From the IMG/VR virus record IMGVR_UViG_3300045242_000078, positions 1 through 51,268 of that record: a DNA stretch of 51,268 nt. One strand, written 5' to 3'. Below the pieces are notes generated by a model. That model had not been told where the DNA came from. It saw only the letters and a list, made by a program, of their open reading frames with translations, and did no database searches. The translations under genes were made by a program, and so were the position numbers. Origin of the DNA: a virus. Lineage: Duplodnaviria; Caudoviricetes. Below are positions 1-33,303 of the stretch, one piece after another (the first letter of the stretch is position 1; each line of letters starts with the position of its first letter).

Positions 1-33
1 CTGCCCAGAAGGGACGGAGTTGGGGCGGATAGC

Positions 34-3269: not shown

Positions 3270-3279
3270 GATTTTCGCC

Positions 3280-4848: not shown

Positions 4849-4857
4849 GATCTGTCC

Positions 4858-5196: not shown

Positions 5197-5198
5197 GG

Positions 5199-5831
5199 TC
5201 AGTAGCGATACCACGCTCTGAGTTGGTCCCCGGTCTGCGGCGTTGACGCAGCCACAAACGTAATCGTCAACCCGGCCAGGTTGTAATCTATGCCGGCAAG
5301 GTACGATGTCCCGTCCTTGTGCGTTAGCAGCAGGCTCGCCGCAGGCGTCGGCGCGTGGGCGAGCGTGAATACTTTGTTTCCTACCGTGCCCGCGCCGTTG
5401 ATGGTGCCAACTGGAGTTTCGTTATCGGCAAACTGCGGCCCGCCCGTCGCTTGTCCGACCAGCTTGTATTGTGTTCCGTCGTACACCACCGACACCACCG
5501 CGCCCGAGCGGATCGTGCCCGCGGCAATCGCGCTTCCGTCGAAGTTCGTAATCGGCACCGTGCCAGTACCATAGGCATTGAGCGTGGAGGCCCCGGTGTT
5601 GGTCGTCGCCGCGAGGAATTGAATCGCAAGCCCCGCCGCGAGCACCGCCGTCACGCCGACAGGCAGGCTCACGATGTACACGTTCGCAGCGCCGGTATCG
5701 ACCAGATAATTGCCGAACGTATTCGTGCTCGCAATCGCCGCTTTGAGCGCCGCGAAATTCGCATCCAGTTGAACGAGGCTCCAGGGTGCCGAGAGGTTCG
5801 CAAAGGTGGTGATCGTTACTGGTGCTGGCAT
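5199..5831 (-). CDS. Short tail fibre/needle-like structural protein
   Basis: QLDANF N-terminal motif, ATTNTGASTLN beta motif, DYxLAG..ITF..P..GD C-terminal motif. Confidence 0.6.
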   Translation of the reverse strand: MPAPVTITTFANLSAPWSLVQLDANFAALKAAIASTNTFGNYLVDTGAANVYIVSLPVGVTAVLAAGLAIQFLAATTNTGASTLNAYGTGTVPITNFDGSAIAAGTIRSGAVVSVVYDGTQYKLVGQATGGPQFADNETPVGTINGAGTVGNKVFTLAHAPTPAASLLLTHKDGTSYLAGIDYNLAGLTITFVAASTPQTGDQLRAWYRY

Positions 5832-5841
5832 GGTGAATTCT

Positions 5842-7371: not shown

Positions 7372-7372
7372 G

Positions 7373-8224
7373 TCACGAAACCGCGTAAGGGTGTTTCAGG
7401 CGACGCGTGTACGCCGAGTTGATCGCCTTGATGACTTCATTGTTGTAGCGTTGGTAAAACATCTCGGCTTCGCTCCACTTCTGCGCCTTGATCTTCGCCA
7501 AGTGCGCCGCGAAATACTGCACCGGGTCTTGCATCACAATCGGAATCACTTCCAGACTCGTGTTATCCACGAGCGGCGGCGGCTGCTGCACCGAATCGAA
7601 GTCCGCCTTGTACGCCTGATCCGGGATGCGCGCGATGTACGTTTGCGTGTAGCCGTAGATGGAAAAGACAACGGGCCTGCCGGGGGTTCCGACAAAACTG
7701 CGCGCGAGCGCGTTGAAGGTGGACCAGTCCCGGTAGGCAAGCACGATGCGCGAATTGCCCGAGTACACCGTGAGGTTTACGCAGTCAATCGTGCTCGAAT
7801 TGATGAAGTAGGCGGTTGCCGCGGAGCCGGTTCCGGGCCCGCCGAAACTAACCGCGGGCGTGCTCGCGTACAGCGTCCCCGGATTCGTCACCACGATGTC
7901 CGTCACCGCGCCCCCCGTGACTGTGGCAACGGCAGTCGCGGTTACACCGCCGGTCACTCCCGGTCCGGCGATGGTGACGGCGGGCGCGGTGACGTAGCCG
8001 GTACCGGGCGATGTGATCTGGAAGCCCGTCACGGAACCGAATGGGTAAACCTCAACGCCAGTCGATAGGTAGAGCGTCTGGAGCAGACGGTTGCAGCCGG
8101 TATCGCGGACTACGCGCGTGCGGGCGGCGTTTACGTAGTCGCCGATCTCCGCGACGCTCGTAAACTGTCCAGCTGCGTCGTGCAGGAGCCTTTGGACTTG
8201 GATTACGTACTGGTTTAGCGCCAT
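7373..8224 (-). CDS. Head-tail adaptor with inserted PGTGYxTAPxVT domain
   Basis: Helical N/C termini (YVNAARTRV; YFAAHLAKIK) plus a Gly/Thr repeat insert. Confidence 0.6.
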   Translation of the reverse strand: MALNQYVIQVQRLLHDAAGQFTSVAEIGDYVNAARTRVVRDTGCNRLLQTLYLSTGVEVYPFGSVTGFQITSPGTGYVTAPAVTIAGPGVTGGVTATAVATVTGGAVTDIVVTNPGTLYASTPAVSFGGPGTGSAATAYFINSSTIDCVNLTVYSGNSRIVLAYRDWSTFNALARSFVGTPGRPVVFSIYGYTQTYIARIPDQAYKADFDSVQQPPPLVDNTSLEVIPIVMQDPVQYFAAHLAKIKAQKWSEAEMFYQRYNNEVIKAINSAYTRRLKHPYAVS

Positions 8225-8236
8225 TGCGCGGGCTTG

Positions 8237-8650
8237 TTAGCCCGCTTGCGCTTGCCGAGCGGCTGCGAGCTTCTGAAGTGGACCGACCCTGCCGTTAGCT
8301 ACTCCCGGCGCGGGGTAGGCAGTCATCCCCGCGCCGGTTTCGTCATCACCAGCCGGGACGGAGGGGCCGGAGATTAGTTGATGCGCGCGCGCCTCTTTTT
8401 CTGACATATGGAAGGAGAATTGCCCGAGCCGTTCCAGCGCCTTCGGCATGTCGTCCAGCGTGAAGGCGAGCCCGAGCCGGCGGATGACGCGCGTCTTGTC
8501 CTCTTCGCCAAAGCCCAAGCAGAGTTCGGCGGTTTCGACCAGCATCTCTTCGACACCGCCCGCCGGAATCGTGAAGTCCTCGCCGTTGTAGCGGTCGCGG
8601 AAAGGTTTGTCGCCGTGGTTCGCAACGAACACGGTTTGCTGTCGGATCAT
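8237..8650 (-). CDS. Hypothetical virion-module protein
   Basis: ATGA-coupled start; conserved in copy 2 with synonymous changes. Confidence 0.7.
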   Translation of the reverse strand: MIRQQTVFVANHGDKPFRDRYNGEDFTIPAGGVEEMLVETAELCLGFGEEDKTRVIRRLGLAFTLDDMPKALERLGQFSFHMSEKEARAHQLISGPSVPAGDDETGAGMTAYPAPGVANGRVGPLQKLAAARQAQAG

Positions 8651-8913
8651 GATGCGAGTTCCCAATCGGTAGCGAGCAAATCAGTTTGGGAACACAGCCA
8701 CGGAACGATGTCCCCGGTTGCCGTTTTCATATCCACGTGAGCGTGATAGGTGACTTCTGTTCCTACCGGATAGATGCCGAGCAACGGAGGGCGGTTGACT
8801 TCAAACTTGCTGCCAGGAACAAGGAACAGGAACATGTTTTTTCCGTTCCACCCGGAACGCGCCACGCGAGCGCCGTCTTGCATCTGCTTCACCGCCCACC
8901 CGATGCCGTTCAT
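8647..8913 (-). CDS. DUF2829 / Tad2-like anti-defence nucleotide-sponge family protein
   Basis: A..G.RVAR.GWNGK.MFLFL and VPWL.SQTDLLA.DW signature motifs. Confidence 0.8.
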   Translation of the reverse strand: MNGIGWAVKQMQDGARVARSGWNGKNMFLFLVPGSKFEVNRPPLLGIYPVGTEVTYHAHVDMKTATGDIVPWLCSQTDLLATDWELAS

Positions 8914-8941
8914 AGTCTGCCCCTTCGATCCACGTGGAACC

Positions 8942-10051
8942 TTACAGCGGCAGCAGGTACGACAGGTCAGACGCCGCGCCGCCGACGGTCTGCGCCACGA
9001 TCGTCACAGCGGCGGAAATCGTGCCGTTAGAATCGCTCGCATATGCAATGCCGGTCGGAATGATTTGGTGCAGCCCGCCATCCAGGAAGGTGACGCCGCC
9101 GCCCACCGTCGTATTAAACGCGGTGTAGGCAGGACGAGGAACGAAAAGCCCCGTGGTGATCGCCGGATTCGTGTTGATGGATTGCGCCGTCGCAAGTGCG
9201 CCAATGGCGAATCCGATGTTGCCGGCACCGAGGTTCGATGCCGCTGTCTGCGCAACGCCCGTCGTGATCGTGAAGCACATGATCGCGGTTGCAGCCGGGG
9301 TGCCAGTAGTGGGCGCAAAGGTGAACGTCGGCACGGAAGTCATGCCCGCGCCGTTGTTCGCCTGCGTGAGCGCCGTATAGCCGCCGGAGCCTGCCAAGGT
9401 CGCATTGACCGTCAGCACGCCGCCCGTGCCCGTTGTGTCGCCCGGCGCGCGCGTGACTGTGACCGGAGGCGCTACCGTGTAGCCTGCGCCCTGGTTCGTC
9501 ACCGTGACCGCGTTGATCGCGCCGGCGGACACCGTGCAGAACGCCGTCGCCGGGACGCCGCCAAGCGGAGGCGGTCCGATCTGGAGCACGGGCGCGCGCG
9601 TGTAGCCAGTACCGCCCGCCGTAATGGCGATGGTCGTATTGATCGCACCGCCCACGATCGCGTTCACCGTTGCGACGATCGATCCGCCGGCGGCGGACAT
9701 CGTAACGGTCGGGCTCGCCGCCGTGCCGTTCCCCGTGCCTGCCGGATAGATGCCGTTCGTTAGGCCGGAACCCGCTGTAGTCAGAGACGCCCCGACCATC
9801 GTCCCGGTCAGGTTCGCAAGCCGCCAGTTCGCCCCGTCGCTCGATACGATCGTGCCCGCCGACTGCGCAGGGGTCGTCAGCACGCGCCAAACTTGCGTCG
9901 CCGCGTCCCACCATTGGAGGAACGTGTAGAGGCCCGGAAGCACCTGATACTGCCCCGAGGGGACCATGAACAACTGCCCCGAGGTCAGGTTGACGGTTAC
10001 AGGCGTGTGGCCTTGGTCGTAGGCGCCGGCCCCCATGCGATTAATTGCCAT
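8942..10051 (-). CDS. Capsid decoration/minor structural protein with G(T/A)GYT.AP repeats
   Basis: Follows capsid/HNH; Gly/Thr/Ala-rich beta repeats; GGAG SD. Confidence 0.6.
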   Translation of the reverse strand: MAINRMGAGAYDQGHTPVTVNLTSGQLFMVPSGQYQVLPGLYTFLQWWDAATQVWRVLTTPAQSAGTIVSSDGANWRLANLTGTMVGASLTTAGSGLTNGIYPAGTGNGTAASPTVTMSAAGGSIVATVNAIVGGAINTTIAITAGGTGYTRAPVLQIGPPPLGGVPATAFCTVSAGAINAVTVTNQGAGYTVAPPVTVTRAPGDTTGTGGVLTVNATLAGSGGYTALTQANNGAGMTSVPTFTFAPTTGTPAATAIMCFTITTGVAQTAASNLGAGNIGFAIGALATAQSINTNPAITTGLFVPRPAYTAFNTTVGGGVTFLDGGLHQIIPTGIAYASDSNGTISAAVTIVAQTVGGAASDLSYLLPL

Positions 10052-10060: not shown

Positions 10061-10546
10061 CTAGATGTGAGCCCAGTTACGGCCTTTTTTCACGTACCAA
10101 ACGGCAGTGATTGAGACGCCGAACTTTTCTGCCATAGACTTCAACGTAAGATTGCTGTCCCTGATGAAATGCACATCGGCTTCGGTCAGTTTCGTCTTGT
10201 TGTTGTCTGGACCGCGGCGACCGATACTGCCGTACATTCCGTGTTTCTCACGCTTCGCGCCACGCCCGCGCATTTCACGATCTCGCGTGTTGTCTTGCGT
10301 AGTGCCGAGATAAAGGTGATGCGGGTTCACGCACGCTTCAACGTCGCAACGATGAAGCACCCACTTCTGAGGCGGAATTGGTCCGTTGAAAAGCGTGTAG
10401 GAAAGACGGTGCGTAGACAAATCCTTCTGCGTCTCGGTATCCCAGATACGACCGTATCCGGTGTCGTTCATTGCGCCCATCCATATCCAGCAACCGCTTT
10501 CGGTTACTGGTTCAACAAGCGCGAGGAATTGGTCTTTCGAGATCAT
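10061..10546 (-). CDS. HNH homing endonuclease with C-terminal HTH
   Basis: GCWIWMG..GYG..HRLSY..VLHRCD...CVNPHHL..GT..DN motif; KLTEADV HTH; ATGA overlap with capsid stop. Confidence 0.9.
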   Translation of the reverse strand: MISKDQFLALVEPVTESGCWIWMGAMNDTGYGRIWDTETQKDLSTHRLSYTLFNGPIPPQKWVLHRCDVEACVNPHHLYLGTTQDNTRDREMRGRGAKREKHGMYGSIGRRGPDNNKTKLTEADVHFIRDSNLTLKSMAEKFGVSITAVWYVKKGRNWAHI

Positions 10547-11637
10547 AATGTTAACGAATTGAACCCAGATATGCGGGTTGATGCTTTTGGTTTTACATTT
10601 GCTAACTCCAAAATGCAAACCAATGCACCCACATATCCCAATTGGAAGTTGCTAATTGTACTTTCAAAACCTGTGAACGCGAAGCTTCCCATTACATGCA
10701 CATACAGATTGATATAGTTAGAATTCTGCAAATACACGATGCCTTCGGGACAGTACTGGTCAGCGTAGATCGGAACGCCGCACACCATGAGCGCATCAAA
10801 CCCGGAGCGCGGCCCGTCGCCTGATCCGTCGAAGCCGGTGCCCGGCGTGATGACGTACTGCTCTTGGCCCTGATAATCCTGCGCGAGCAGCGCCCAGGTG
10901 CCAAAGCCGCACACGCCGAAACTCGGTTTCTCGCCGCCGTTCTTTGCCGTGCCAGCGATGTACTGCAAGAGTGCTTGCCGCGTCGGGTTGCCGGTTGCGG
11001 CGTACACCTTCGACTGCCACCACACGTTTTGCGTGCGGTTGATGTTGCCGTAGGTCACCATGTTGGTGCCGTCGTCAATCGCGCCGGGAAAGCCGATCAG
11101 CGCCTGCAAGTTCGTCGTGTTGTTGAATAGCGCGGTTGAAAACACGTCCATGACTACGTTCCCGGCGTCGTTCATCTTCGCCTCGATCTTCGGAATGATC
11201 GCGTGATCGAGTTGCAGGATGCCTTCCATCCCGAGGAACGGAATAGGCACGATGAAGAGTTTCAGATTCCCCTCGAAGAGGAACGCGCCCTGCAAGTCGG
11301 ACGGCTGATTGAACGCGCCGTCGTAGCCTGACCATTGACCGGTGACAAACGGGGCACCCTGCACCGGGACACTGATGGAACTGACGCCACCGTAAGCGGG
11401 CTGCGCTCCGGCAAGTAGGGACGCCATCGTGGGCGAGTTGTTGTAGATTTGGACTACGAGGCGGGGAATGAACGCCCTTCTCGTAATTGCGGTTAACTCC
11501 CCTCCAACGCCTACCCCTGGGACGATTCCTGTACCAAATACGACGGTTTGCATTAAACCCACGCGCATCATGTATTGCGTGATTGCGAAATACGCCGGTT
11601 CAAACAGCCACGTCAAAAAGTTGAGGAAGCGATTCAT
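10543..11637 (-). CDS. Major capsid protein (with ~31-aa N-terminal extension)
   Basis: Position after scaffold; 364 aa; TAAGGAG SD before ATG 11637; motifs RRAFIP.LVVQIY, YGNINR...WW, GVPIY.D.YCP. Confidence 0.85.
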   Translation of the reverse strand: MNRFLNFLTWLFEPAYFAITQYMMRVGLMQTVVFGTGIVPGVGVGGELTAITRRAFIPRLVVQIYNNSPTMASLLAGAQPAYGGVSSISVPVQGAPFVTGQWSGYDGAFNQPSDLQGAFLFEGNLKLFIVPIPFLGMEGILQLDHAIIPKIEAKMNDAGNVVMDVFSTALFNNTTNLQALIGFPGAIDDGTNMVTYGNINRTQNVWWQSKVYAATGNPTRQALLQYIAGTAKNGGEKPSFGVCGFGTWALLAQDYQGQEQYVITPGTGFDGSGDGPRSGFDALMVCGVPIYADQYCPEGIVYLQNSNYINLYVHVMGSFAFTGFESTISNFQLGYVGALVCILELANVKPKASTRISGFNSLTL

Positions 11638-11647
11638 GCGAGACTCC

Positions 11648-12268
11648 TTATCCCAAGGCAAAGCCGGCCGCAACTTCATGCGCGGTGAAAAGAGAACTGG
11701 GAATCGAAACGCCGTATTGTTGCAGCAGAGTCGATGCCCAAGCTAGTTTGTCCTCAACTCTCTGCCCGTAGGGTTGGGATTTGCTCCACAGTTCTAGATT
11801 GGAAATTGAATTGTCGGCGCGGTCGCCGTTCTTGTGGTGAACGGTTTCGTGAGGAAGCAGCGGCCTTCCCAGAATCTTCGCCATGATGACGCGATGTTCC
11901 TTGACGATCTTCCCGTCGATGGCTTTTCGTTTGTAGCCGTTCGAATCCAAGGTGAATGGTTCTGCCCTTCTGAAAATAGTTCTGCATGCATAAGAACAGA
12001 AATTTGAGTCCTTGAACATCTTGAATTGGGAACTGTAGCGCGTGTACAACTTGCCGCACACTTTGCAGTTTTTGCTTACAGATTCCTGGCCGTTCCTGCA
12101 TGCCCTAGAGCAATACCTTGCGGGTTCTGCGCGGTGCGCCGGAACAGAAAATTCAGATTTGCAGCCGAGACATATTTTTTTGACCGCGGTCGATGGCGTG
12201 CCACGCGGTTTGCGCTTCATCTTTTCGAGCGCCGCAGCGCGCCGCTCCGGGTCTTTTGGCATTGTCAT
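11648..12268 (-). CDS. HNH endonuclease with N-terminal CxxC/CSxxC Zn repeats
   Basis: C..C..F....YCSRAC repeats; EHR..M..LGR.L...[11 protein letters not shown]...NLEL. Confidence 0.9.
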
Positions 12269-15069: not shown

Positions 15070-16743
15070 CTATTTGACAGATGCCAGAGGCGGCTTCGGC
15101 GCGGCTTTCTGCGCCTCCATCGCCATTTTCTGCTGCGCGGCCTTGGCCTCTGCCGGTTCGATGATCTCTTTCAGTTCGCGCAAAATCGCCTCTTCTGCCG
15201 GCGGCGAGTTGAGCATAATGTACCGCTCGCGCGTGATGGCTCTCGCCTTGAGTAGCCGGTCGCTCAACAACTGCGACCCCTCTTGGAAGATCGGGCTGTT
15301 GCTGTGCGCGTCCACGCCCACGGTGAAGTTTGGCGACATTTCCGCCGGAATGAACGGCACATCGTTATCGTCGTACAGTTCCTCGGTCGTCCCCACGTAC
15401 AGGCATTTCCCGAACAGCGTTGCGGACTGATCAAGCGAGTCCTCGATAATCATCGCGCGCTTTTTCGGCCGCGCCGTGCCCACCGTCAGGAGCTTGCCCG
15501 CGTGCCCCGCCGAGCGAACGCCAGATTCGCCCCTGCCCTGCACCACGTTGGACAATCCCGATACCGTGTCCATGTAATCCTGATAGCGCGCGAGGCTGGC
15601 GTAGATGTGCTCCGGGATGTTCGGCACGAAAGTCTCGCGGCGGAAGTTGGGATCGCCGATTGCCACGTTCGCGCCGGGCGAATTGAATGCGTCCATCTTG
15701 TCGGGTAGCCCCATGCCGCCCCAGGCAGAAGGCGGATCCACCTGCTTTTGTTCCAGCCGTTCGATGTCGATCATTCGCTCGTTCAGCTTGTTCTGGATCG
15801 GCGTCAGCTTGGAGACTTCCGACTGTCCCCAGAAATAGTCTGGCAGCGGGTTCGGGCAGACCTGGACAAAGCCGTGCTCGCCTTCGAAGTCCTTGGAGCG
15901 CGGCAGGAAAATGTTCTTGCGGTCGAACACGATCGCCTGCTCGCCTGCCATCGTGCAGACCTGGTAATCATCTTGGGAATCGTCCCAGACGTAGATTTCC
16001 TGCATCTCAATGACGGGAACAGCAAGCTGCGCGGCGTAGTCGGCGATGGTGCCGATATTCACGTTCACTTCGCCCTGGAGGCTCTGCAAGCCTTCGCCGG
16101 GGATGCCCGAAGTCAGGAGGATGCGATCCAACATCGGCGGCGTTGACGACGCGGTATCCTTTTTGGTATAGGCGTCCGTGGCCGCTTTCAGGATTTCCTC
16201 GCGCTTCGGGTGCAGGCTGATGCGCTTCGCAAGGTCGGATTTCGTCATGTAGTACACATGGACGAACGCTTCCTGCCGGTCGAGCATGGGCACGTCGTCG
16301 CGGTACACGCCGAAACAGGCCGGGTCGATGACGTAGGGGTCCACGCGGCCATTCCTGCGCCGGATGTGCTTGACGAGCGTCGTGTCGTACACCATCGACC
16401 ACAGGATCGCCATTTGCATAATGACGTCGGCGTTCGCCTTCTTCCACTCTTCCATTACCAGCTTGCCAAAGGCGCCGGTGCGCTTGCGGTCGGACTTCGG
16501 GGCGTGACTTCCCATCGTGACACTGAACCGCGTCGAATCGCTGGCGTAGAGGAATGACGTGACGGTGTCGAGGTGACTGTAGAGCAGATTCCACGGCGAC
16601 GGTGCGCCGTCTGACGTGCCGTAGAAGTAATAGGCCCTATTCAGAGTGTACTGTTCCAATCGCGTCTGGCGCGAGGACATGCACACACGCGACACCTCTT
16701 GCCAAAAATCGAGACGCGCCGCGTCCTGGTGCGGGATACGCAT
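15070..16743 (-). CDS. Portal protein
   Basis: 557 aa downstream of terminase; YFWGQSEV..L..IQ and VSGLSNVVQG motifs typical of podovirus portals. Confidence 0.85.
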   Translation of the reverse strand: MRIPHQDAARLDFWQEVSRVCMSSRQTRLEQYTLNRAYYFYGTSDGAPSPWNLLYSHLDTVTSFLYASDSTRFSVTMGSHAPKSDRKRTGAFGKLVMEEWKKANADVIMQMAILWSMVYDTTLVKHIRRRNGRVDPYVIDPACFGVYRDDVPMLDRQEAFVHVYYMTKSDLAKRISLHPKREEILKAATDAYTKKDTASSTPPMLDRILLTSGIPGEGLQSLQGEVNVNIGTIADYAAQLAVPVIEMQEIYVWDDSQDDYQVCTMAGEQAIVFDRKNIFLPRSKDFEGEHGFVQVCPNPLPDYFWGQSEVSKLTPIQNKLNERMIDIERLEQKQVDPPSAWGGMGLPDKMDAFNSPGANVAIGDPNFRRETFVPNIPEHIYASLARYQDYMDTVSGLSNVVQGRGESGVRSAGHAGKLLTVGTARPKKRAMIIEDSLDQSATLFGKCLYVGTTEELYDDNDVPFIPAEMSPNFTVGVDAHSNSPIFQEGSQLLSDRLLKARAITRERYIMLNSPPAEEAILRELKEIIEPAEAKAAQQKMAMEAQKAAPKPPLASVK

Positions 16744-17240: not shown

Positions 17241-17621
17241 CTATTTGTTCACCGGCGGCAACACCGGAAAGGCAGCCTTGTTCACGGCAACCCAGTCGAG
17301 CACCGGCCCCCTGTCCGTCATCCTGATCCGCGTCAGCATCGTCTGCTCCGGCAGCGGATCCTCGTACACCGTGATCTCGTAGGTGCCGCGCGCCTTGCTT
17401 ACCCGACGCGCTTCCACCTGCCCGTTTTCCAGCAGCGTGAACGCGCGATCTAACCGGCGGTACGTCTCCCGGTACATACCCTCGAATTCCTTGGCGTATC
17501 GCCACCAGTGACCGGGGCCGATTCCGCTTACCTTCTCAAGGATCGCAAGCGAGAATGGCCGCTCCTTCGCCGGCATGGCGATCAGGGCGCGCAGTCTTCG
17601 TTTGCATTCCTCTCTTGTCAC
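17241..17621 (-). CDS. Hypothetical protein (possible HTH)
   Basis: GTGA-coupled to terminase stop. Confidence 0.6.
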   Translation of the reverse strand: MTREECKRRLRALIAMPAKERPFSLAILEKVSGIGPGHWWRYAKEFEGMYRETYRRLDRAFTLLENGQVEARRVSKARGTYEITVYEDPLPEQTMLTRIRMTDRGPVLDWVAVNKAAFPVLPPVNK

Positions 17622-19423
17622 TTGTTCACTCCGTACCGTATGCCCACTTTCTCCATGTACCCCCCGACCGTGCTCCTCAGCGTACTCTCAACCGGCGTCT
17701 CCGCTCGGCCCGTGATCGCCACCTTCGCCCGCTTGTCGGCTTCCTTCGCCCAGGTGAGGCCCATCTGCTTTAGCTTCATGATGAAGTAGCGCACGTGGTT
17801 CTCCGCCGCAATCGCAGACGCCACCGTGCAGTCATCGTGCCCGCGGCCAGAGGCGCCAAGGAAGCCGTCTTTCTCGCGCACGATGATTTTCATTTCGTCG
17901 GCGAGCAACTTGGAGTGCAGCACGGCATGCCCCTTATCGACCAGATCGCGGAAGGTGTTGAAACAGCGGTCCTTGGTCTCGGCTGAAGTTTTCCAGGCGT
18001 ACACACCGCCTCCGAATGGGCTATCGAGCCTTCGATACAGGAAGTAGCGCATATGCCCGACCACATCGCGCAGTGCCTTTCCCTGCGGCGAAGCGCCCAT
18101 AATAGCCGCCTGCCGCCGCAGGTTGTCGATTTCCCCGAGCACCGCTTCCCCCGGCCCGTTGATCTCAAGGTTGACCATCGAATTGCGGTAGCACCCGGCG
18201 ATGTAGCAAATCACCCACGCGAACTTGTACGTGGTGATTTCTGGCGTGCAGAATTCCGCCACCTGCTCGAAGCGATCGGCGTAGCAGCGGTACACTTCGA
18301 CCACGCTTCTATCCGCCCAATGCGCGCTGCCGTAGGCTGGATCCGCGCCAATCGAATAGAAGGCCGTATCGTCTGGCTGCTCCCAGATGCGAAGATGCGC
18401 CGTGCGCTCGGGACATTCCTCCACCACCGTCTGCATGAAGTCAGAACCGAAGCCAAAGCGCAGGCATTCGACGGGCGCGGGTTCCGCCTCGATCGCAGTC
18501 GCAATGTCGTGCACGCGCGTCAGGCTGAAAAAGTTTTTTCCCGTGAGGATGAAGGCCATCTCCGACGTCCAGGGCATTTCTTGTCTGGCGTAATCTTGGT
18601 CGTGAAGTTTTTCCGCAACGATCCAGCGCCACCACGCTATTTGCTCCGGTACGATGTCGAAGTCGTATTGCAACTTGACCGCTTGAGCCCACTCGTGTTC
18701 GTTGCTGGTTAGTTTTCCATCCCAATAGACTTCATATTCATTGGAATCTTTTTCTTTGCGGTATAGTTCATTGCGCCACCATCCTATGAAGATCGCTCGT
18801 TGCGTTACGGCATCTTCTGCTTCTACAAACATTTCGTGAAACAAATTAAAGCCGCGTGCAGTCGATTCCCACATCGCAAAGCGCAGCGGGTTTATTTCTG
18901 CAAGCGAAGACTGAATTGATGCAAGCGATTCTTCATCTTCCCAAGAACTGCACTCGGTTGCGTGAATGAAGGTGATGCCTTTGCCGCGTCCCTTACCGCC
19001 TTTTCGTTTCACACCGCCGCCAATCTGCATGAACATGCGTGATCCGTTTTCAAATTCGAGCATGTTGCGATTGTTGGTAAGTAACCTGAGACGGTGCGTA
19101 CGCGGCAGCCCATTGTGGAACTGCGTTAGAGTCGAGCGGAACATATCCTTATTCTCTTCCCCATCCGAGGCGAGCGTGCCCTGCATCCCCGTATACTCAT
19201 AGTGCCAAAACAAGTCAATTGCTAACTGAATGGTAGTCACCCCGAGTTGGCGAGCTTTGCAGCAAACGAAAGAATGAATGTCGTCCTCAAGCCCTCTCAC
19301 AACCTCTTGCAACAGATATTCTTGCGTGCCAAGCAATTTGTCCAGCGTGATTACGCCCTGCTCCTTGGAACTAACGGAGAGTTGATTGCAAAAAGCGCGG
19401 AACCTGCGTATGTCGAACTTCAC
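17618..19423 (-). CDS. terL: Terminase large subunit
   Basis: Walker A KARQLGVTT, Walker B FIHATE, ESTARG, nuclease IGADPAYG and GHDD; GTGA-coupled start at 19423. Confidence 0.92.
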   Translation of the reverse strand: MKFDIRRFRAFCNQLSVSSKEQGVITLDKLLGTQEYLLQEVVRGLEDDIHSFVCCKARQLGVTTIQLAIDLFWHYEYTGMQGTLASDGEENKDMFRSTLTQFHNGLPRTHRLRLLTNNRNMLEFENGSRMFMQIGGGVKRKGGKGRGKGITFIHATECSSWEDEESLASIQSSLAEINPLRFAMWESTARGFNLFHEMFVEAEDAVTQRAIFIGWWRNELYRKEKDSNEYEVYWDGKLTSNEHEWAQAVKLQYDFDIVPEQIAWWRWIVAEKLHDQDYARQEMPWTSEMAFILTGKNFFSLTRVHDIATAIEAEPAPVECLRFGFGSDFMQTVVEECPERTAHLRIWEQPDDTAFYSIGADPAYGSAHWADRSVVEVYRCYADRFEQVAEFCTPEITTYKFAWVICYIAGCYRNSMVNLEINGPGEAVLGEIDNLRRQAAIMGASPQGKALRDVVGHMRYFLYRRLDSPFGGGVYAWKTSAETKDRCFNTFRDLVDKGHAVLHSKLLADEMKIIVREKDGFLGASGRGHDDCTVASAIAAENHVRYFIMKLKQMGLTWAKEADKRAKVAITGRAETPVESTLRSTVGGYMEKVGIRYGVNK

Positions 19424-19977
19424 GCGGACGCTATGAGCGATTGAACGAACACGGAAAAATCCTTTGTGTGTTTTCTGGAGTTGCAAGACTTGCACAGCAA
19501 TTGAATGTTGCTAATGTCATTACTTCCGCCGTTTGCCATCGCAACAATGTGATCGGCTGACGGATTGCGCGTGATGTCGCAGCCGCACGCGTTGCACTTA
19601 CCATCCTGCTCTATCATCATGGACTTCAGTTGCGCCGCTGTATGCTTTCCGTTTACACCCTTGAGGAGAGCGCGACGATTGCGTGTGTACGCGGCCCTCT
19701 CTGCCGGATGCTCTTGCAAATACTTCTTGGATCTTGCTAGAAAAAATTGGTGGCGTGACAGTCTGTTCTTTTTTCGATGCGCCTTTACCTTTTCTGGGTT
19801 TTTGATATTCCACTTCTTTTTTGAGAGCGCATGTATTCCCGGATTGGCCTTGTTTCGAACACGAGCGTACTCGTTGTGGCAAGGCTTGCACATTTTATGC
19901 AAACCGTCCTTCGTCGCGCGATTGATTCCGAACGCGGATTCGTCAAATTCCTTCTTGCAGGACCAGCAGACTTTCAT
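19420..19977 (-). CDS. HNH endonuclease (McrA-like) with N-terminal Zn finger
   Basis: CxxC..F...DGL...CK.C; CNAC...DHIVAMANGGSNDISNIQLLCKSCNSRK. Confidence 0.9.
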   Translation of the reverse strand: MKVCWSCKKEFDESAFGINRATKDGLHKMCKPCHNEYARVRNKANPGIHALSKKKWNIKNPEKVKAHRKKNRLSRHQFFLARSKKYLQEHPAERAAYTRNRRALLKGVNGKHTAAQLKSMMIEQDGKCNACGCDITRNPSADHIVAMANGGSNDISNIQLLCKSCNSRKHTKDFSVFVQSLIASA

Positions 19978-20234
19978 CCCGTAATCGCGCTAACTCGCAC
20001 GCGTGCCCACCGCGCCTGCGGTTCTTTCTCGATCACGCCCTCGCGCTCAAGCAAGTCCGCGCACTCCTGCACGTGCGTCCGGTTCAAGCCGATGTCTTTC
20101 GATGCGCGCGCCCGCCAGCCGCCTGTGACCATGCAGTCCTCGCCCATCTTGCACAAGAGCCACCAAAGCAATTTATGGCAACCCGCATTGAGCTTCAAGC
20201 GGTAGATCGGTTTTGCTTCGACGCCGATGGTCAC
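19974..20234 (-). CDS. Winged-helix DNA-binding protein (possible terminase small subunit or regulator)
   Basis: ASKDIGLNRTHVQECADLLEREGVIE wHTH pattern; upstream of terL. Confidence 0.5.
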   Translation of the reverse strand: MTIGVEAKPIYRLKLNAGCHKLLWWLLCKMGEDCMVTGGWRARASKDIGLNRTHVQECADLLEREGVIEKEPQARWARVRVSAITG

Positions 20235-20235
20235 G

Positions 20236-20481
20236 TCAATATTCCGGCCACACTTCAATCTGCCCGTGCTTCTCAATCAAGTGGATTAGTTTCTTGTACG
20301 GATTTTCTTTGTTGTCCCCAAATACTCCAGCCATTGCATTGAGAGCAACAATGTGAGTCTCATTGAGGCGAAACGGCCTGTCGCCAAAAGCGTTTTCCAT
20401 TGCTTCCAGAAACGCACTCGGACAACTAACGCCAAGACTATCTGCGCCCTTAGTCGGACGATACATGATTGACGCACTCAT
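20236..20481 (-). CDS. Hypothetical protein
   Basis: TAATG-coupled. Confidence 0.6.
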   Translation of the reverse strand: MSASIMYRPTKGADSLGVSCPSAFLEAMENAFGDRPFRLNETHIVALNAMAGVFGDNKENPYKKLIHLIEKHGQIEVWPEY

Positions 20482-20738
20482 TATTCAGGACTACTCCGCG
20501 CCAGTTCCATCAGTGCAACGCTTAGCGGCGTCGTTTTGTAAATCTGCGTGATAAGCCCAGGCACGAATGCTTTTCGAGAGATTTCGAAAATGTCTTGAAC
20601 GATCTTTCTTTCGTAATAATTGATCGCCAGCGTTTCCTCAAACGTTGGCAGGACAATACGCATCAGCGACTCGGCGCGTACGATAGCTGGTGCTGCGCCA
20701 AGCGCCAGGATGGAAGACATAAAGCCGCGCCGGTTCAT
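20481..20738 (-). CDS. 85-aa twin-arginine-signal protein with capsid-N-terminus-like C-terminal segment
   Basis: MNRRGFMSSILALGAAPAIVRA signal; ATGA and TAATG coupling on both sides; residues 49-77 align to capsid residues 47-75. Confidence 0.75.
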   Translation of the reverse strand: MNRRGFMSSILALGAAPAIVRAESLMRIVLPTFEETLAINYYERKIVQDIFEISRKAFVPGLITQIYKTTPLSVALMELARSSPE

Positions 20739-20950
20739 CCGCGAGACACCGGCCAATACCCCCACACAAGCAGAACCAATGCCAGTATCCAATGCCCGTA
20801 GAACAACAGCAGCAGGACGGCCAGCAGCGGCAACGAAAGAATCAGCAACACCAGAATAAAATTGTTCACGGCGTATATTCTCCCATTGCCAACGCGAACA
20901 GCAGAAACAACGGAAGAACGATATGCCCGTGAGCGAGCAGCAATCCACAC
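20735..20950 (-). CDS. Small membrane protein (start may be downstream GTG)
   Basis: Two strongly hydrophobic segments. Confidence 0.5.
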   Translation of the reverse strand: MWIAARSRAYRSSVVSAVRVGNGRIYAVNNFILVLLILSLPLLAVLLLLFYGHWILALVLLVWGYWPVSRG

Positions 20951-29861: not shown

Positions 29862-31007
29862 CCGCAGGGAGGATTTTTAGGAGGCTGCCATGCAATTTCG
29901 ATTGAGATTGGTAAAACCGACTGACCGCGCGCCGGATAAGCCGCTCGCCAAGTTGTCGCTGGAGGAAAAGCGGCTGCGCGCGATTCAGTACCTCAAGGCG
30001 CGCAATCTCTGGGTGCTACAGAAGGGATCGATGGCGCCGAGGTGGAAGGCATGAAAATCGTAGTCGCCAAGTGCATTGGTTGCGGCACAACCAGAGAAAT
30101 TCGTGCGGGCGAGATTGCGCCTGACGATCATCCGATGTGCGAACTTTGCTACATGCCGATGGTTGCCTGGAAGGGGAAGGTGGAGCACGACCCGCCCGGC
30201 GACGAATGGGAAGAGCGGCGCATTAGGGAGGGTGAGAAATGAATCAAGATGACATTAGAGAAGCATCCGACGCAGCGCTTGCAAAGGATCGGGAAAGACT
30301 CCCACAAATGCCGGCTAACGAAACACTGGACGATTTATACAGACTAGGTTTTGCGCGTGGAGTGGGCTGGATCGTAAAGCTGGATAACTTGGATACCGAC
30401 TATCACGACGACAAACCGCCGGAACTTGCCGACCGGCACGTGACAACCAGCGCGGGCGATCTGGACCTGGCCGGAAGGCCGTTGAAGCAAGGCAGTTAGA
30501 AATGGACTGGGAAAAGTGGCCGTTAAACGCATATGTCGATTGGGAGACAAAGACGGTGCGTTTTATGGTGCCGGACGGAAGCGGCATGTACGTCGGCAGC
30601 TTGGATGCCGGATGGAAACACGCTAACAAACTGCAAGACGAAAACGCTGGCTTGCGTGTCGAACGCGATGTCCTACGCGCCGACATCGCCTGTTTAGTCA
30701 GAGCGCTCCGGCCAATCACCAATGATCCAGCCATACCGCTTTTGTTCGACCGCCAACTATCGCCGTTCACGCTGATGGAGTTGACGAAGTAGGAATTTCA
30801 ACGAAGGAGGGAGAAACGAATGTTCCGTATCACGGTTACCGAGTGCAACCCGCTGGCCGATCCGGGCGCCCCGCCGGTAGAGATAGAAGTGTTCCGCCAG
30901 AGCGTAGAAGCGCTGGACCTGCGCTCCGTGATCGAGGCGATCAACAGGCGTCCCAGGAAGCCGCGCGAGGCCCGCGCGCCGACGAACGCGCCGAAGAAGG
31001 AAAAGCC

Positions 31008-31793
31008 GTGAGCGACGAAACCACGCTGGTCGTTCCGTACTCCCGCGCCGAGGACCGCGTGCCGGCGGTTGCGCAGTCCGAGCAATCCTTGCTGCAAGCG
31101 ATCGTGCGCGCGGCGGCGGACCCTGCGACGGACCTGAGCAAGATCGAGCGCCTTTACGCCCTGCACGAGCGCATGGTGAAAAACGACGCGGAGACGGCCT
31201 TCAATGCTGCCCTGGCTCGCGCCCAGGCGCTTATGCCGACCGTGGCCCGCAAGGCGTCGAATACGCAGACAAACAGCAAGTACGCCAAGCTGGAGGCCAT
31301 TGTCGAGGCCATTTCCCCGATCTACACAGCGGAGGGATTTGCCTTGAGCTTCGACACGGCGGAAGCGCCCAAGGCCGGGGATATTCGCATTGTCTCAATT
31401 CTGTCCCACGCCGCCGGCCACAGCCGGCAGTATCACATCGATATGCCGCCAGATGAGGCCGGGATCAAAGGCAACGTCAACAAGACGCGCCTGCACGCGA
31501 CCGGCAGCACGAATAGCTATGCGCGGCGCTACCTGATCTGCATGATCTTCAACGTTGCCACGATGGACGATAACGACGGCAACCGCGACAAGAAAGTGAT
31601 GCCGGATAAAGCATTGGCCGACTGGCTCGCCGCGGTGGAAATGGCGGAGTCGATGGACCAGATCGAGGCGGTATGGATTCAGATTCTCGCAGCCTCGAAA
31701 GATGCAGGTGACATTGAGGCGCACGAGACCATGCGAGCGGCCGTACTGAAACGGAGGAAGGAAATCAAAGCCAAGGGGGAGACGAAAACATGA
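31008..31793 (+). CDS. ERF-family ssDNA annealing protein
   Basis: AFNAALA.AQ, KYAKLE.I, GST.SYARRY motifs; GTGA start. Confidence 0.85.
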   Translation: MSDETTLVVPYSRAEDRVPAVAQSEQSLLQAIVRAAADPATDLSKIERLYALHERMVKNDAETAFNAALARAQALMPTVARKASNTQTNSKYAKLEAIVEAISPIYTAEGFALSFDTAEAPKAGDIRIVSILSHAAGHSRQYHIDMPPDEAGIKGNVNKTRLHATGSTNSYARRYLICMIFNVATMDDNDGNRDKKVMPDKALADWLAAVEMAESMDQIEAVWIQILAASKDAGDIEAHETMRAAVLKRRKEIKAKGETKT

Positions 31794-32659
31794 ACCAGCA
31801 AGAGGTGGTTGCCTACAGCCCCGTCAAGGCCGCGCTGGCCGATCTTGAGCACAAGTACAAGGCCGTAGTATTCGACGTGTCCACGCCTGCGGGCATGAGC
31901 ACGGCAAAAGCCGCCTACAAGGACATCAATGCATACAGCATCATGCTCGAAGCCGCGAGGGTGAAGGAAAAGGCGGACAGCCTCGCTTACGGCCGGTTTG
32001 TGGACAGCGAGGCCAAGCGCATTGCCGATCAATTGGACGCGCTGCGCCTGCCGATCAAAAACCAGATTGATGAGGTAGCCAAGGCCGAGCAACGCGCCCG
32101 CGAAGCCGCAATCAAGGAAGCGCAGGACCGCATCACCGCCGAGCACGAAGCGGCGAAGGCGGCAGAAGAACGGCGCATGGCGGAAGCCCGCGCCGAGATT
32201 GCGCGCCAGCAGGCGGAAATCGCCCGCGCGCAGCGGGAAGCCGAGGAAGCGGCCAGGGCGTCGCGTGCCAGGATCGAGGCAGATGAAAGGGCAGCCCGCC
32301 AAGCACGCGAGGAAGCCGACCGCGCGGCGCGCCGCGAACGCGAGGAAGCGGAAGCCGCAGCCAAGAGGATCAGGGATGCCGAGGAAGCACGCCTCAAGGC
32401 TGAGCGCGACCGGATCGACGCCGAGGCACGCGCGCTGGCCGAGGCCAAACGCGCGGAACAGCAGCGGATTGACGACGAAGCCCGCAGGGCTCTACTGAAA
32501 GCCGAAGAAGCGATGCGAGAAGCAGCGCGCAAGAAGATGTTTGCAGAGGCCACGGAGGAAATGATTACGACACTGCGATTCAGGATTTCTGACTCCGACG
32601 CTCATGCCGGCATCGCGGCGGCGATAGACGAATACCTTGCCCAAAAGGTGCCGGCATGA
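31790..32659 (+). CDS. Coiled-coil protein in recombination cluster
   Basis: E/A/R-rich heptads; coupled to ERF and exonuclease. Confidence 0.7.
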   Translation: MNQQEVVAYSPVKAALADLEHKYKAVVFDVSTPAGMSTAKAAYKDINAYSIMLEAARVKEKADSLAYGRFVDSEAKRIADQLDALRLPIKNQIDEVAKAEQRAREAAIKEAQDRITAEHEAAKAAEERRMAEARAEIARQQAEIARAQREAEEAARASRARIEADERAARQAREEADRAARREREEAEAAAKRIRDAEEARLKAERDRIDAEARALAEAKRAEQQRIDDEARRALLKAEEAMREAARKKMFAEATEEMITTLRFRISDSDAHAGIAAAIDEYLAQKVPA

Positions 32660-33303
32660 GCGACAGCTTCGATAAATTCCTTGAGCAGGGCGAACAGCGC
32701 TCGCCTGAGTGGCTGGCTGCGCGCGTAGGATTTACCAGCGCGTCACGTTTCCGCGATGTAGTGGACAAACTGAAATCCGGCAAACCCGGCGCAAAGCGCG
32801 AAGCTTATCTTTGGGAAAAAGTAATTGAACGTTTAACGGGCCAGCCTGCAACGCATTATGAATCTGTGGCTATGCAATGGGGCGTAGAGAACGAAGCGGA
32901 AGCGCGTCAGCAATACGAAGCGCATACCGGCGCACTGGTTGAGGAAACCGGCTTTATCCATCATCCGTCGCTTGAATGGGTAGGCGGATCGCCAGATGGA
33001 AAGATTGATTCAGGCGGCGTAGTGGAAATAAAAAATCCGTTCAACAGCGCGAATCACCTGCAATGCTTCCTTACTGGCTTTCCCGAGGAACACCGCGCGC
33101 AAACGCAAGGACTACTCTGGCTGATGAATAGGCAGTGGGTTGATTGCGTGTCATACGATCGCCGACTGCCAGCGCCATTGAATCTCTACATTGAGCGGCA
33201 GCAACGCGATGACGATTACTGCGTCATGCTCGCCGCAGAAATCACGGTGTTTAACGCCGAGGTTGCCGCGCTGGTCGAAAAGCTGCGGGCGATACGTTCG
33301 TGA
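32656..33303 (+). CDS. YqaJ/lambda-exonuclease family nuclease
   Basis: QRSPEWL..R.G..SAS, MQWG.E.E..AR..YE, GGSPDG, EIK. Confidence 0.9.
   Translation: MSDSFDKFLEQGEQRSPEWLAARVGFTSASRFRDVVDKLKSGKPGAKREAYLWEKVIERLTGQPATHYESVAMQWGVENEAEARQQYEAHTGALVEETGFIHHPSLEWVGGSPDGKIDSGGVVEIKNPFNSANHLQCFLTGFPEEHRAQTQGLLWLMNRQWVDCVSYDRRLPAPLNLYIERQQRDDDYCVMLAAEITVFNAEVAALVEKLRAIRS

What the first reader, a model, noticed from the sequence alone, without database searches (positions are those of the whole stretch)
20481..20738. Twin-arginine-signal mini-protein carrying a copy of the major capsid N-terminal segment (candidate capsid mimic/decoy)
Seen: the real ORF starts at 20738 (ATGA overlap upstream, TAATG downstream; the ORF track over-extends it). 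It begins with a Tat-like signal (NRRGFM, h-region, VRA). Residues 49-77, DIFEISRKAFVPGLITQIYKTTPLSVALM, align without gaps to capsid residues 47-75, ELTAITRRAFIPRLVVQIYNNSPTMASLL (11/29 identical by hand, many others conservative). The protein ends 8 residues later. The copy is diverged, so it is not a recent duplication. Established: several defence systems sense major capsid proteins or short capsid peptides (CapRel, Lit/Gol). Inference: a decoy that titrates or relocates a capsid-sensing immune receptor to the membrane/periplasm (Tat exports folded complexes), a dominant-negative inhibitor of competitor capsid assembly, or a membrane anchor for procapsids. I know of no description of this architecture.
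Basis: partly seen in the sequence, partly recalled or inferred. Interest (0 to 1): 0.88.

Follow-up and report, generated by a model that had tools for sequence, protein, structure and literature searches.

The report
Phage mini-protein: export leader plus capsid-arm copy
A small phage gene joins a highly conserved export-type signal to an old, diverged copy of the first arm of the phage's own capsid protein, and it belongs to a large family of phage mini-proteins, apparently undescribed, that share the signal and often carry pieces of capsid proteins.

Summary
Window 20481-20738 (-) encodes an 85-aa protein. Its residues 47-83 are a significant, gap-free, diverged copy of the N-terminal arm of the phage's own major capsid protein (BLASTP E 7e-7; 0 of 2000 shuffles reach the score; hhalign 91%).

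The gene belongs to a family. About 190 phage mini-proteins share a near-invariant 30-aa Tat-like leader (MNRRGFLGSILALGAAPAIVRA[DE]SLMRIVP). The leader is conserved as protein, because third codon positions vary freely, and it is fused to very different C-terminal cargos.

- 34 of 181 distinct cargos match large phage proteins: 33 match the first ~150 residues of capsid proteins of three PHROG families, and 1 matches a portal N-terminus.
- Every other cargo hit to a family of known function is to a head or tail protein.
- P22-like cargos are mosaics of the coat N-arm, the next strand and the long P-domain helix. Some are in permuted order, and they stop at a constant point.
- Capsid-type cargo was of the phage's own capsid family in all four genomes where this could be checked.
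- The family is almost absent from bacterial genomes and from the closest annotated relative.

Function is untested. My best reading (about 0.3) is a membrane- or Tat-targeted competitive mimic of the capsid arm that engages an assembly partner. The rivals are an immune decoy, a leader-only function, and a periplasmic accessory role. Five full-text searches found no description.

The parts
20481..20738 (-). Mini-protein gene, 85 codons plus TAA stop (P0001)
   Evidence: The start overlaps the upstream stop (ATGA) and the stop overlaps the downstream start (TAATG). The GC pattern by codon position is coding-like at 0.55/0.42/0.56.
20673..20738 (-). Residues 1-22: Tat-like signal (MNRRGF, uncharged h-region GFMSSILALGAAPAIV, V-R-A)
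   Evidence: Pfam TAT_signal scores 14.3 bits, E 0.041, below its cut-off. 51 of 132 family members hit TAT_signal at E<0.01. Thirteen of these positions are invariant in 37 relatives. Codon-position entropy is 0.68/0.38/1.46 bits.
20646..20672 (-). Residues 23-31: ESLMRIVLP, a conserved box just after the predicted cleavage site
   Evidence: S24 and M26 are invariant; L25, R27 and P31 are nearly invariant.
20601..20645 (-). Residues 32-46: variable spacer
   Evidence: Not similar to the capsid or to other family members.
20490..20600 (-). Residues 47-83: diverged copy of the capsid N-terminal arm
10543..11553 (-). Major capsid protein gene, probable true start M43 of the ORF. The mechanical ORF runs to 11679.
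   Evidence: phrog_9953 E 2e-25. Most relatives are 334-336 aa. The MW202753 capsid is 333 aa.
11395..11499 (-). Capsid segment that the mini-protein copies (ORF residues 61-95, about residues 19-53 of the 336-aa protein)
   Evidence: It contains the family-invariant residues E19 L20 T24 R25 R26 A27 F28 P30 V34 Q35 N38 A44 L46. By my hand comparison of the alignment with the list, six are identical and five conservative in the mini-protein.
20735..20950 (-). Upstream overlapping ORF, 71 aa, very hydrophobic (P0003). Function unknown.
   Evidence: No family hit beyond phrog_1712 at E 0.043. No PADLOC hit.
20236..20481 (-). Downstream overlapping ORF, 81 aa (P0004). Function unknown.
19420..19977 (-). 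HNH endonuclease gene between the mini-gene block and the terminase gene
   Evidence: Pfam HNH_5 2.5e-11 and phrog_1035 1.1e-26.
17618..19495 (-). Terminase large subunit gene, the start of the packaging and structural genes downstream of the mini-gene
   Evidence: phrog_2 E 2.2e-15.

Best explanation
Shown:
- This is a real, translationally coupled accessory gene of an uncultured soil phage.
- It encodes a member of a phage-restricted family of mini-proteins. The family has a near-invariant 30-residue Tat-type leader (twin arginine, mildly hydrophobic Gly/Ala-rich stretch with a Pro, V-R-A, then a conserved ESLMRIVP box), a variable spacer, and a swappable C-terminal module.
- In this phage the module is an old, in-frame, diverged copy of the N-terminal arm of its own HK97-type major capsid protein.

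Inferred:
- The leader takes the protein to the inner membrane or the Tat translocon.
- The module acts as a competitive mimic of the free capsid arm. It binds a partner that normally holds that arm during head assembly, either the scaffolding protein or a neighbouring capsid subunit.
- Binding tethers that partner at the membrane or withdraws it.
- The patchy, fast-changing distribution suggests an accessory role in conflict, such as interference with co-infecting relatives or tuning of assembly. It does not look like a core assembly factor.
For: The copy is significant.

The leader is conserved as protein. Entropy by codon position is 0.68/0.38/1.46 bits over 14 distinct leaders, and the upstream DNA is unconserved.

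Family size:
- 177 hits of 46-149 aa among 220 candidates.
- Only 12 hits of 150-213 aa among 54 candidates, one of them the window's own over-long ORF.
- 77 viral loci.

Cargo content:
- 34 of 181 distinct cargos hit large ORFs. 33 hit capsid proteins, all within residues 1-152, and 1 hits a portal at residues 55-97. None hit non-structural ORFs among the 873 searched. Subject identities were confirmed.
- The Pfam and PHROG hits of known function are all head or tail proteins.
- 27 of 27 tblastn hits of another member (P0060) fall in coat genes through its cargo.

P22-like cargos are built from three coat motifs, here called A, B and C:
- A occurs in 25 cargos, B in 24, C in 9, and at least one in 39 of 181. 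Shuffles give 2.65.
- Orders found are AB 13, CB 3, CAB 1 and CA 1, whereas the capsid order is A-B-C.
- Motif B lies 0-7 residues before the stop in 22 of 24.
- By position these segments correspond to the N-arm, the F-loop/strand and the P-domain helix. They skip the E-loop.
- In P22 the scaffolding protein contacts N-arm residues N4, D14, E15, E18 and R101 of the P-domain (PMC9965877, passages read).

Cargo matches the phage's own capsid family in the window, in L056 (two genes), in L022 and, by eye only, in L016.

In L056, synonymous sites between cargo and capsid are saturated (pS 0.84) while pN is 0.21.

The gene sits on the late-gene strand just upstream of the HNH and terminase genes. 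In L056 the two genes flank the portal gene.
Against: - No binding, export or expression data exist.
- About 80% of cargos match nothing. Two genomes tested (L015 95% complete, L014 51% complete) have no own-genome source for their cargo.
- Some cargos look like whole small domains rather than interface peptides, such as the Gp80 fibre domain or LamG.
- A signal that puts the cargo in the periplasm would separate it from cytoplasmic assembly partners.
- The low dN/dS could have been acquired while the segment was still part of a capsid gene.
- The window's capsid family has no solved structure. Calling the copied piece the N-arm therefore rests on its position and on the general HK97 plan.
- Mapping the P22-like segments onto P22 domains is by position, not by alignment to P22 itself.
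- The cargo is not closer to the phage's own capsid than to relatives' capsids. The window's cargo is 34% identical to its own capsid and 39% to the L066 capsid. The L022 cargo scores 81 against its own capsid and 87 against the L016 capsid.
- AF2 models are low-confidence.
Confidence: 0.3

Rival explanations
1. Immune decoy. The capsid-arm copy binds a host defence protein that senses newly made capsid protein. The leader then holds that sensor at the membrane, or exports the complex through Tat, which can carry folded complexes.
For: - Cargo classes (capsid N-region, portal, tail fibre/spike) match the kinds of phage proteins known to trigger defence. CapRel binds newly made capsid protein, a Gol peptide within T4 gp23 activates Lit, and PifA escape mutants map to the T7 capsid (PMC9712102, passages read).
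- The gene is accessory and patchy. It is absent from the complete relative MW202753 and has low GC3 compared with core genes. Cargo is replaced between relatives with the same capsid family, as in the window versus L066.
- Some genomes carry two copies.
Against: - A mimic of a trigger would be expected to activate the sensor, not silence it.
- No defence or anti-defence family hit was found (PADLOC).
- The gene is placed with late genes, not with early anti-defence genes.
- No sensor is known for this phage or its host.
- The permuted coat mosaics keep what are, by position, scaffold-contact elements. This fits an assembly partner at least as well.
Confidence: 0.2
2. The leader is the working part. 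It would be a small membrane or Tat-engaging peptide that blocks or uses a conserved host membrane component. What follows it would be tolerated baggage, often recruited from nearby structural genes.
For: - The leader is far more conserved than ordinary signal peptides, including its hydrophobic core and 8 residues past the cleavage site, across phages with unrelated capsid families.
- Cargos are unrelated to each other, of varied length, and about 80% have no match.
- No conserved neighbour gene was found.
- There is a precedent in kind. [quoted passage not shown] That the C-terminal part of that lysis protein can be replaced is recalled, not checked.
Against: - All 33 capsid hits lie in the first 152 residues of roughly 290-405-aa capsid ORFs, and no hit is to a non-structural ORF.
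- The end point after motif B is constant (22 of 24).
- Permuted but motif-preserving mosaics are not what random remnants would give.
- Capsid motifs are retained despite saturated synonymous change.
Confidence: 0.2
3. An exported periplasmic accessory protein, for superinfection exclusion, receptor masking or control of lysis timing. The capsid likeness would only reflect where the sequence came from.
For: - The Tat-like signal with the positive-inside arrangement predicts a periplasmic C-terminus (inspection).
- Small phage proteins with signal peptides act in the periplasm. T4 Spackle is one (abstract of PMC7677548) and T4 RI is another (abstract of PMC8385771).
- Some cargos are glycan-binding or depolymerase-like modules (LamG, pectate-lyase, Gp80 fibre).
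- In the window the gene is coupled to a small, very hydrophobic ORF.
Against: - Capsid arms have no known periplasmic partner.
- Pectate-lyase cargos are only the first rungs of the domain (profile positions 10-70 of 213).
- No lysis genes were identified next to the gene, and there is no conserved neighbour across loci.
Confidence: 0.12
4. A non-functional leftover of a partial capsid-gene duplication that happens to be in frame behind a leader.
For: - HNH endonuclease genes flank the capsid gene, and a third lies beside the mini-gene block. Local rearrangement is therefore plausible.
- The cargo has no close orthologue, so selection on it could not be measured.
Against: - The same design recurs in at least three capsid families and in two copies in L056.
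- The frame is open to a stop that overlaps the next start.
- The gene is embedded in an overlapping gene chain.
Confidence: 0.05

Closest known systems
Twin-arginine (Tat) signal peptides of bacterial exported proteins
   Same: RRxF motif, a mildly hydrophobic Gly/Ala-rich stretch, a basic residue before a small-x-small site. 51 of 132 family members hit Pfam TAT_signal at E<0.01.
   Different: The leader is phage-encoded and nearly invariant in its hydrophobic core and beyond the cleavage site. It is attached to 50-120-aa fragments, not to cofactor enzymes. It was found in only 3 of 185,579 species genomes scanned, all of them MAGs. This member is below the curated cut-offs.
T4 Gol peptide / Lit, CapRel and PifA: short capsid regions or capsid proteins as triggers of host defence
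   Same: A short piece of a major capsid protein acting apart from the capsid (PMC9712102).
   Different: Gol is part of the capsid gene itself, not a separate gene with an export leader. No sensor is known here. Nothing was tested.
T4 internal proteins with a shared N-terminal capsid-targeting sequence (recalled, not checked in a call)
   Same: A short conserved N-terminal leader on otherwise unrelated small phage proteins.
   Different: That leader targets the head interior and is cut by the head protease. This leader looks like a membrane export signal, and the variable part, not the leader, resembles capsid.
Competing or mimicking assembly proteins of satellites (SaPI1 CpmB, P4 Sid)
   Same: Small accessory proteins that act through the capsid-scaffold interface (PMC5644958, abstract start seen).
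   Different: Those are alternative scaffolds that bind the capsid protein. Here the protein copies the capsid side of the interface and carries a signal peptide.
Gag-derived dominant-negative factors of eukaryotes (for example RTL8 against PEG10)
   Same: A stand-alone gene resembling a Gag/capsid gene that interferes with particle formation (title and start of abstract seen).
   Different: Different fold, different domain of life, no export signal. This is an analogy only.
Leader-plus-variable-core families (polymorphic toxins, bacteriocin and RiPP precursors)
   Same: A conserved N-terminal trafficking part with a highly variable C-terminal part (PMC3482391, abstract start seen).
   Different: No toxin domains, immunity genes or processing enzymes lie nearby. 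Cargos derive from virion proteins.

Membership tests
Tat signal peptide | Twin-arginine consensus (S/T-R-R-x-F-L-K) in the n-region | tested here: met
   The sequence reads N-R-R-G-F-M-S. R3, R4 and F6 are invariant in 37 and in 132 relatives. The consensus itself is recalled.
Tat signal peptide | Uncharged, moderately hydrophobic h-region followed by a c-region with a basic residue and a small-x-small cleavage site | tested here: met
   GFMSSILALGAAPAIV is 16 residues with mean Kyte-Doolittle 1.79, and is followed by V-R-A. This was judged by inspection; no SignalP or TatP was available.
Tat signal peptide | Score above the curated HMM cut-offs (Pfam PF10518, NCBIfam TIGR01409) | tested here: not met
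   P0001 scores 14.3 bits against a cut-off of 22.7 and has no TIGR01409 hit. One relative, P0135, reaches 23.4 bits. 51 of 132 relatives have E<0.01.
Tat signal peptide | Export that depends on TatABC | not testable with these tools
   Needs reporter fusions in tat+ and tat- cells.
HK97-fold major capsid protein (phrog_9953) | Full-length match to the capsid family profile | tested here: not met
   P0001 has no PHROG hit. Only residues 47-78 align, to profile columns 15-46 of 335. It is a copy of one segment, not a capsid protein.
Leader-cargo mini-protein family defined here | N-terminal MNRRGF..LA..AAPAIVRA.SLM leader at the very start of a protein of about 75-215 aa | tested here: met
Leader-cargo mini-protein family defined here | Cargo derived from a virion protein of the same phage | tested here: met
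   Met for this member. Across the family it holds for only a part: 34 of 181 by BLASTP. No own-genome source was found for the L015 and L014 cargos.
Known defence or anti-defence families (PADLOC) | Match to a defence-system model | tested here: not met
   No hit for P0001 or seven neighbouring ORFs.

The most novel reading that the evidence does not exclude
Phages carry a universal 'capture and remove' device. It would be one ultra-conserved Tat leader onto which each phage grafts a mimic of its own virion proteins (capsid arm and P-domain helix, portal N-terminus, fibre pieces). The mimic would bind whatever recognises that piece, either a host capsid-sensing immune receptor or a competitor's scaffolding or capsid protein. 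The leader would then drag the bound, folded partner to the Tat translocon and out of the cytoplasm by hitchhiking. This would be a new class of phage counter-defence or inter-phage weapon that uses the host export machinery.
Probability: 0.1. Interest if true: 0.95.

Novelty: categorically new. Interest (0 to 1): 0.8.

Why it matters
If the reading holds, phages repeatedly build stand-alone mimics of the assembly or recognition surface of their own capsid proteins and attach them to one shared export-type signal.

This would give a direct handle on two open questions:
- how unassembled capsid protein is recognised, by scaffolds or by immune sensors;
- whether phages exploit the Tat pathway.

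Whatever the function, three results stand:
- a new family with a sharply defined signature that can be annotated in metagenomes;
- a natural set of minimal capsid-derived peptides, including permuted mosaics, that mark which parts of the coat protein matter on their own;
- a signal peptide whose conservation is unusual enough to suggest a specific binding partner.

Tried and rejected
1. The leader as a conserved DNA site (attP core, recombination or homing site). Rejected: third codon positions vary freely and the flanks are unconserved.

2. A decayed leader in the in-frame extension upstream of the capsid gene. Not significant: 233 of 2000 shuffles reach the score.

3. Full-length capsid or tail proteins carrying the leader, which would make the mini-proteins truncated calls. 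The 'longer' search found only 12 proteins of 150-213 aa among 54 candidates. Mini-genes in long contigs end at true stops.

4. A conserved partner gene within 2.5 kb. None was found. The largest non-self cluster with a plausible gene spans 5 of 52 loci.

5. Prophage or host origin. Only 3 relatives turned up among 93 pattern matches in 185,579 species genomes, all MAG contigs.

6. Cargo alone against 1.84 billion representatives. It found itself and two repetitive junk proteins.

7. ESM Atlas. The best feature score was 0.90, to unnamed viral clusters, and named rows were Tat-signal proteins at 0.83-0.85. These are leads only.

8. AF2. P0001 alone gave pLDDT 54.3. A 19-sequence alignment of P22-type members gave pLDDT 61.7, with helices at 3-12, 16-27 and 50-75. 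Both are too weak for a fold search, so none was run.

9. Complex prediction of the capsid protein (36-row alignment) with mini residues 23-85. It returned no verdict and is not used as evidence either way.

10. Sequencing runs. No RNA holder was listed. There are two soil-metagenome DNA rows, one of which may be the source.

11. No solved structure for the window's capsid family.

12. PADLOC gave no hits. NCBIfam gave no hit for P0001 and only weak sub-threshold rows for relatives: TIGR01409 for two, a rhamnogalacturonidase model for one, and TransRepNsdA for four through the leader.

13. Own-genome source of cargo in L015 and L014. Only self-hits were found.

14. In one search, with only +/-10 kb per locus, only the window and L056 showed own-locus capsid hits among 56 leader ORFs in 52 sources. 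The L022 capsid lay outside its locus and was found later.

15. Literature. Searches found no description of such a family. Supplements are closed and subscription papers are not searched.

16. The tblastn searches of GenBank phages found no leader. BLAST's low-complexity filter may mask the leader, so its absence there is not shown.

Full report
**The gene.** The window is a 51,268-bp virus record, and its packaging and structural genes lie on the minus strand. The finding is the ORF at 20738 to 20481. Its ATG sits inside GGATGA and overlaps the stop of a 71-aa, very hydrophobic ORF. Its TAA overlaps the ATG of the next 81-aa ORF. An HNH endonuclease gene and the large terminase gene follow. 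A Holliday-junction resolvase gene and a primase/helicase gene lie upstream. The mechanical ORF extends to a TTG at 20960. All relatives start at MNRRGF and the upstream DNA is not conserved, so 20738 is the start.

**The capsid copy.**
- The capsid gene is the 10543-11679 ORF (phrog_9953, E 2e-25).
- BLASTP aligns mini residues 49-83 with capsid ORF residues 61-95: 12/35 identical, 23/35 positive, no gaps, E 7e-7.
- The Smith-Waterman score is 67 against 24.2 +/- 3.8 for shuffles, and 0 of 2000 shuffles reach it.
- hhalign against 36 capsid homologues gives 91.2% probability, E 9.8e-7.
- Thirteen positions are invariant in this stretch of the capsid family. By my hand comparison of the alignment with the list, the mini-protein keeps six unchanged and five conservatively.
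- Most homologues are 334-336 aa and the MW202753 capsid is 333 aa. The capsid therefore probably starts at M43 of the ORF (window 11553), and the copied piece is residues about 19-53.
- Calling this piece the N-arm of an HK97-type protein is an inference from position. No solved relative exists.

**The leader defines a family.**
- A search of 5.8 billion proteins returned 177 hits of 46-149 aa among 220 candidates.
- Almost all share only the first ~30 residues, at roughly 90% identity, and then diverge completely.
- Only 12 proteins of 150-213 aa among 54 candidates carry the leader. One of them is the window's own over-long ORF.
- IMG/VR holds 77 loci.
- 185,579 species genomes hold 3, all MAG contigs.
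- The complete genome of the closest annotated relative, MW202753, which has the same capsid family, has no such ORF.
- Over 14 distinct leaders, entropy by codon position is 0.68, 0.38 and 1.46 bits, and the 30 nt upstream are random. The leader is therefore kept as protein, not as a DNA site.
- It looks like a Tat signal: RRxF, a 16-residue Gly/Ala-rich uncharged stretch with a Pro, and V-R-A with a basic residue.
- 51 of 132 members hit Pfam TAT_signal at E<0.01. This member scores 14.3 bits against a cut-off of 22.7.
- Conservation runs about 8 residues past the predicted cleavage site. This is unusual for a signal peptide and suggests a specific partner.

**What the cargos are.**
- I took 181 distinct cargos (of 193 found) and compared them with all 873 ORFs of 200 aa or more in the fetched loci and the window.
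- 35 gave hits at E<1e-3. One of these was a self-hit.
- Of the 34 real ones, 33 hit proteins that PHROG calls major head proteins: phrog_283 in L016, L080, L004 and L028; phrog_334 in L056; phrog_9953 in L066; and the annotated capsid of MW202753.
- One hit the N-terminal part of a portal protein.
- All 33 capsid hits lie within residues 1-152: 24 within the first 60 and 9 between 74 and 152. None hit a non-structural ORF.
- Family scans of 132 members agree. Besides TAT_signal, the stronger Pfam hits are SU10_MCP (3), Laminin_G_3 (2), pectate-lyase (2), Gp80 fibre (1) and PhiKZ_MCP (1). Four single-member hits at E 0.004-0.008 remain: one to a phage endosialidase N-terminal extension and three to non-phage families, which I take for noise.
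- All seven PHROG families of known function are head or tail proteins (10 member hits). Four PHROG families are of unknown function.
- Not every hit is N-terminal. P0075 matches SU10_MCP positions 81-123 of 292. P0068 matches PhiKZ_MCP positions 575-615 of 635, but below that family's cut-off.
- A different member, P0060, hits 27 GenBank phage records, always through its cargo. Twenty of these hits are annotated as coat, capsid or head. The other seven are 'hypothetical'; six lie at the same coordinates as capsid genes in sibling genomes, and the seventh (H6) is a second record of Thalassomonas phage BA3 whose other record calls the same position major head protein.
- About 80% of cargos matched nothing.

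**Mosaic build of the P22-like class.** The phrog_283 capsids are P22-type coat proteins. Their relatives are annotated as P22 coat protein, and the PDB hits are to coat proteins and an insertion domain.
- Three N-region motifs occur in these capsids in the order A (about residue 11), B (about 47) and C (about 92).
- Among the 181 cargos, A occurs in 25, B in 24, C in 9, and at least one in 39. Shuffles give 2.65.
- The orders found are AB (13), CB (3), CAB (1) and CA (1). Some mini-proteins therefore carry the segments in permuted order, and all omit the stretch between B and C.
- Motif B lies 0-7 residues before the stop in 22 of 24.
- In P22 the domains are: N-arm residues 2-30, F-loop 34-50, E-loop 51-78 and the P-domain with its long helix 79-127. 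The scaffolding protein contacts N4, D14, E15 and E18 of the N-arm and R101 (PMC9965877, passages read).
- By position, which is an inference, the mini-proteins keep the N-arm, the following strand and the P-domain helix, and they drop the E-loop. The part they keep is the scaffold-facing part.
- Random leftovers of recombination would not give this pattern.

**Relation to the phage's own capsid.**
- In L056 two leader genes flank the portal gene, and both carry copies of the N-terminus of that phage's phrog_334 capsid. One is identical at 26 of 36 aligned residues with pN 0.21 and pS 0.84, which is saturated.
- In L022 the cargo aligns with residues 2-37 of its own phrog_283 capsid, which lies outside the +/-10 kb locus.
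- In L016 the likeness to its own capsid N-terminus is visible by eye, but the aligner preferred another region.
- With the window, that makes four genomes in which capsid-type cargo is of the phage's own capsid family.
- The cargo is not closer to the phage's own capsid than to relatives' capsids. This suggests old paralogues and not recent duplication. The low dN/dS could also date from before capture.
- For two other cargo types (L015, L014) no source was found in the same genome.

**Context.**
- No neighbour gene is shared across loci.
- In the window, the mini-gene and its two small neighbours have GC3 of 0.49-0.58, against 0.67-0.81 for the capsid, terminase and portal genes.
- Together with its absence from MW202753, this marks an accessory gene.

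**Interpretation.**
- Shown: the gene model, the copy, the family, protein-level selection on the leader, and the strong bias of recognisable cargos toward capsid N-regions.
- Inferred: targeting by the leader, and action of the cargo as a mimic.
- I rank as most likely (0.3) a competitive mimic of the capsid arm that engages an assembly partner (scaffold or neighbouring subunit) at the membrane. The retained segments of the P22-type members coincide with scaffold contacts, and the genes sit among late genes.
- The immune-decoy idea (0.2) fits the accessory, fast-changing nature and the list of known triggers (PMC9712102). It has no direct support, and a trigger mimic should activate a sensor.
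- A leader-only function (0.2) fits the extreme leader conservation and the many unmatched cargos. It does not fit the ordered capsid mosaics.
- A periplasmic role (0.12) fits the predicted topology and the lectin-like cargos. It does not fit capsid arms.
- A dead remnant (0.05) is unlikely given the recurrence.

**Limits.**
- Complex prediction gave no verdict.
- No RNA data were found.
- AF2 models were weak.
- Five full-text searches found no description of such proteins. A 2026 Tat review mentions phages only for SlyD and phiX174, for T4 RI in its reference list, and in the name of the phage shock protein PspA.
- Supplements and subscription journals were not searchable.

Noticed in passing
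window 3300-9800 and 44760-51268: The two ends of the record repeat each other at an offset of 41,462 bp. They are 100% identical over about 3500-8000 and 87-97% identical beyond that. Window 1-3300 does not match 41463-44762. This looks like a roughly 41.5-kb genome assembled past its own start with strain variation in the tail-gene region, or like two related elements in tandem.
   Followed up: partly
window 11648-12268, 10061-10618, 19420-19977 (all -): There are three HNH endonuclease genes. Two directly flank the capsid gene and one lies just upstream of the terminase gene.
   Followed up: no
window 11554-11679 (-): The capsid ORF is over-extended by 42 codons at its 5' end. Close relatives called at 362-380 aa probably share this over-call, while most of the family is 334-336 aa.
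   Followed up: partly
window 19420-20950: A block of small genes and an HNH gene has lower GC (0.525 for 18001-20000) and lower GC3 (0.49-0.59) than the core genes (0.67-0.81). This suggests an acquired accessory island between the replication and packaging modules.
   Followed up: partly
L056 7621-7890 and 10001-10252: Two leader genes flank the portal gene (7878-10001). Both carry copies of the N-terminus of that phage's own capsid (15314-16459). Their leaders differ at 14 of about 25 synonymous sites but at only 5 of 65 non-synonymous sites.
   Followed up: yes
L017, L019, L064: Further loci each hold two leader-type ORFs. Their cargos matched nothing.
   Followed up: no
L066 188-439 and 9953-10831: A relative with the same capsid family (phrog_9953) has a leader gene about 9.8 kb upstream of the capsid gene, as in the window. 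Its cargo is unrelated and not capsid-like.
   Followed up: partly
window 30843-33303 (+): An Erf-like annealing protein gene and a RecE-like exonuclease gene lie on the opposite strand. No integrase was seen among the ORFs I scanned.
   Followed up: no
P0139, P0140 (database proteins): The only non-self hits of the cargo in the 1.84-billion library are long repetitive proteins with a recurring FTPKTFVPALL unit. They are most likely translated repeats and chance matches.
   Followed up: yes
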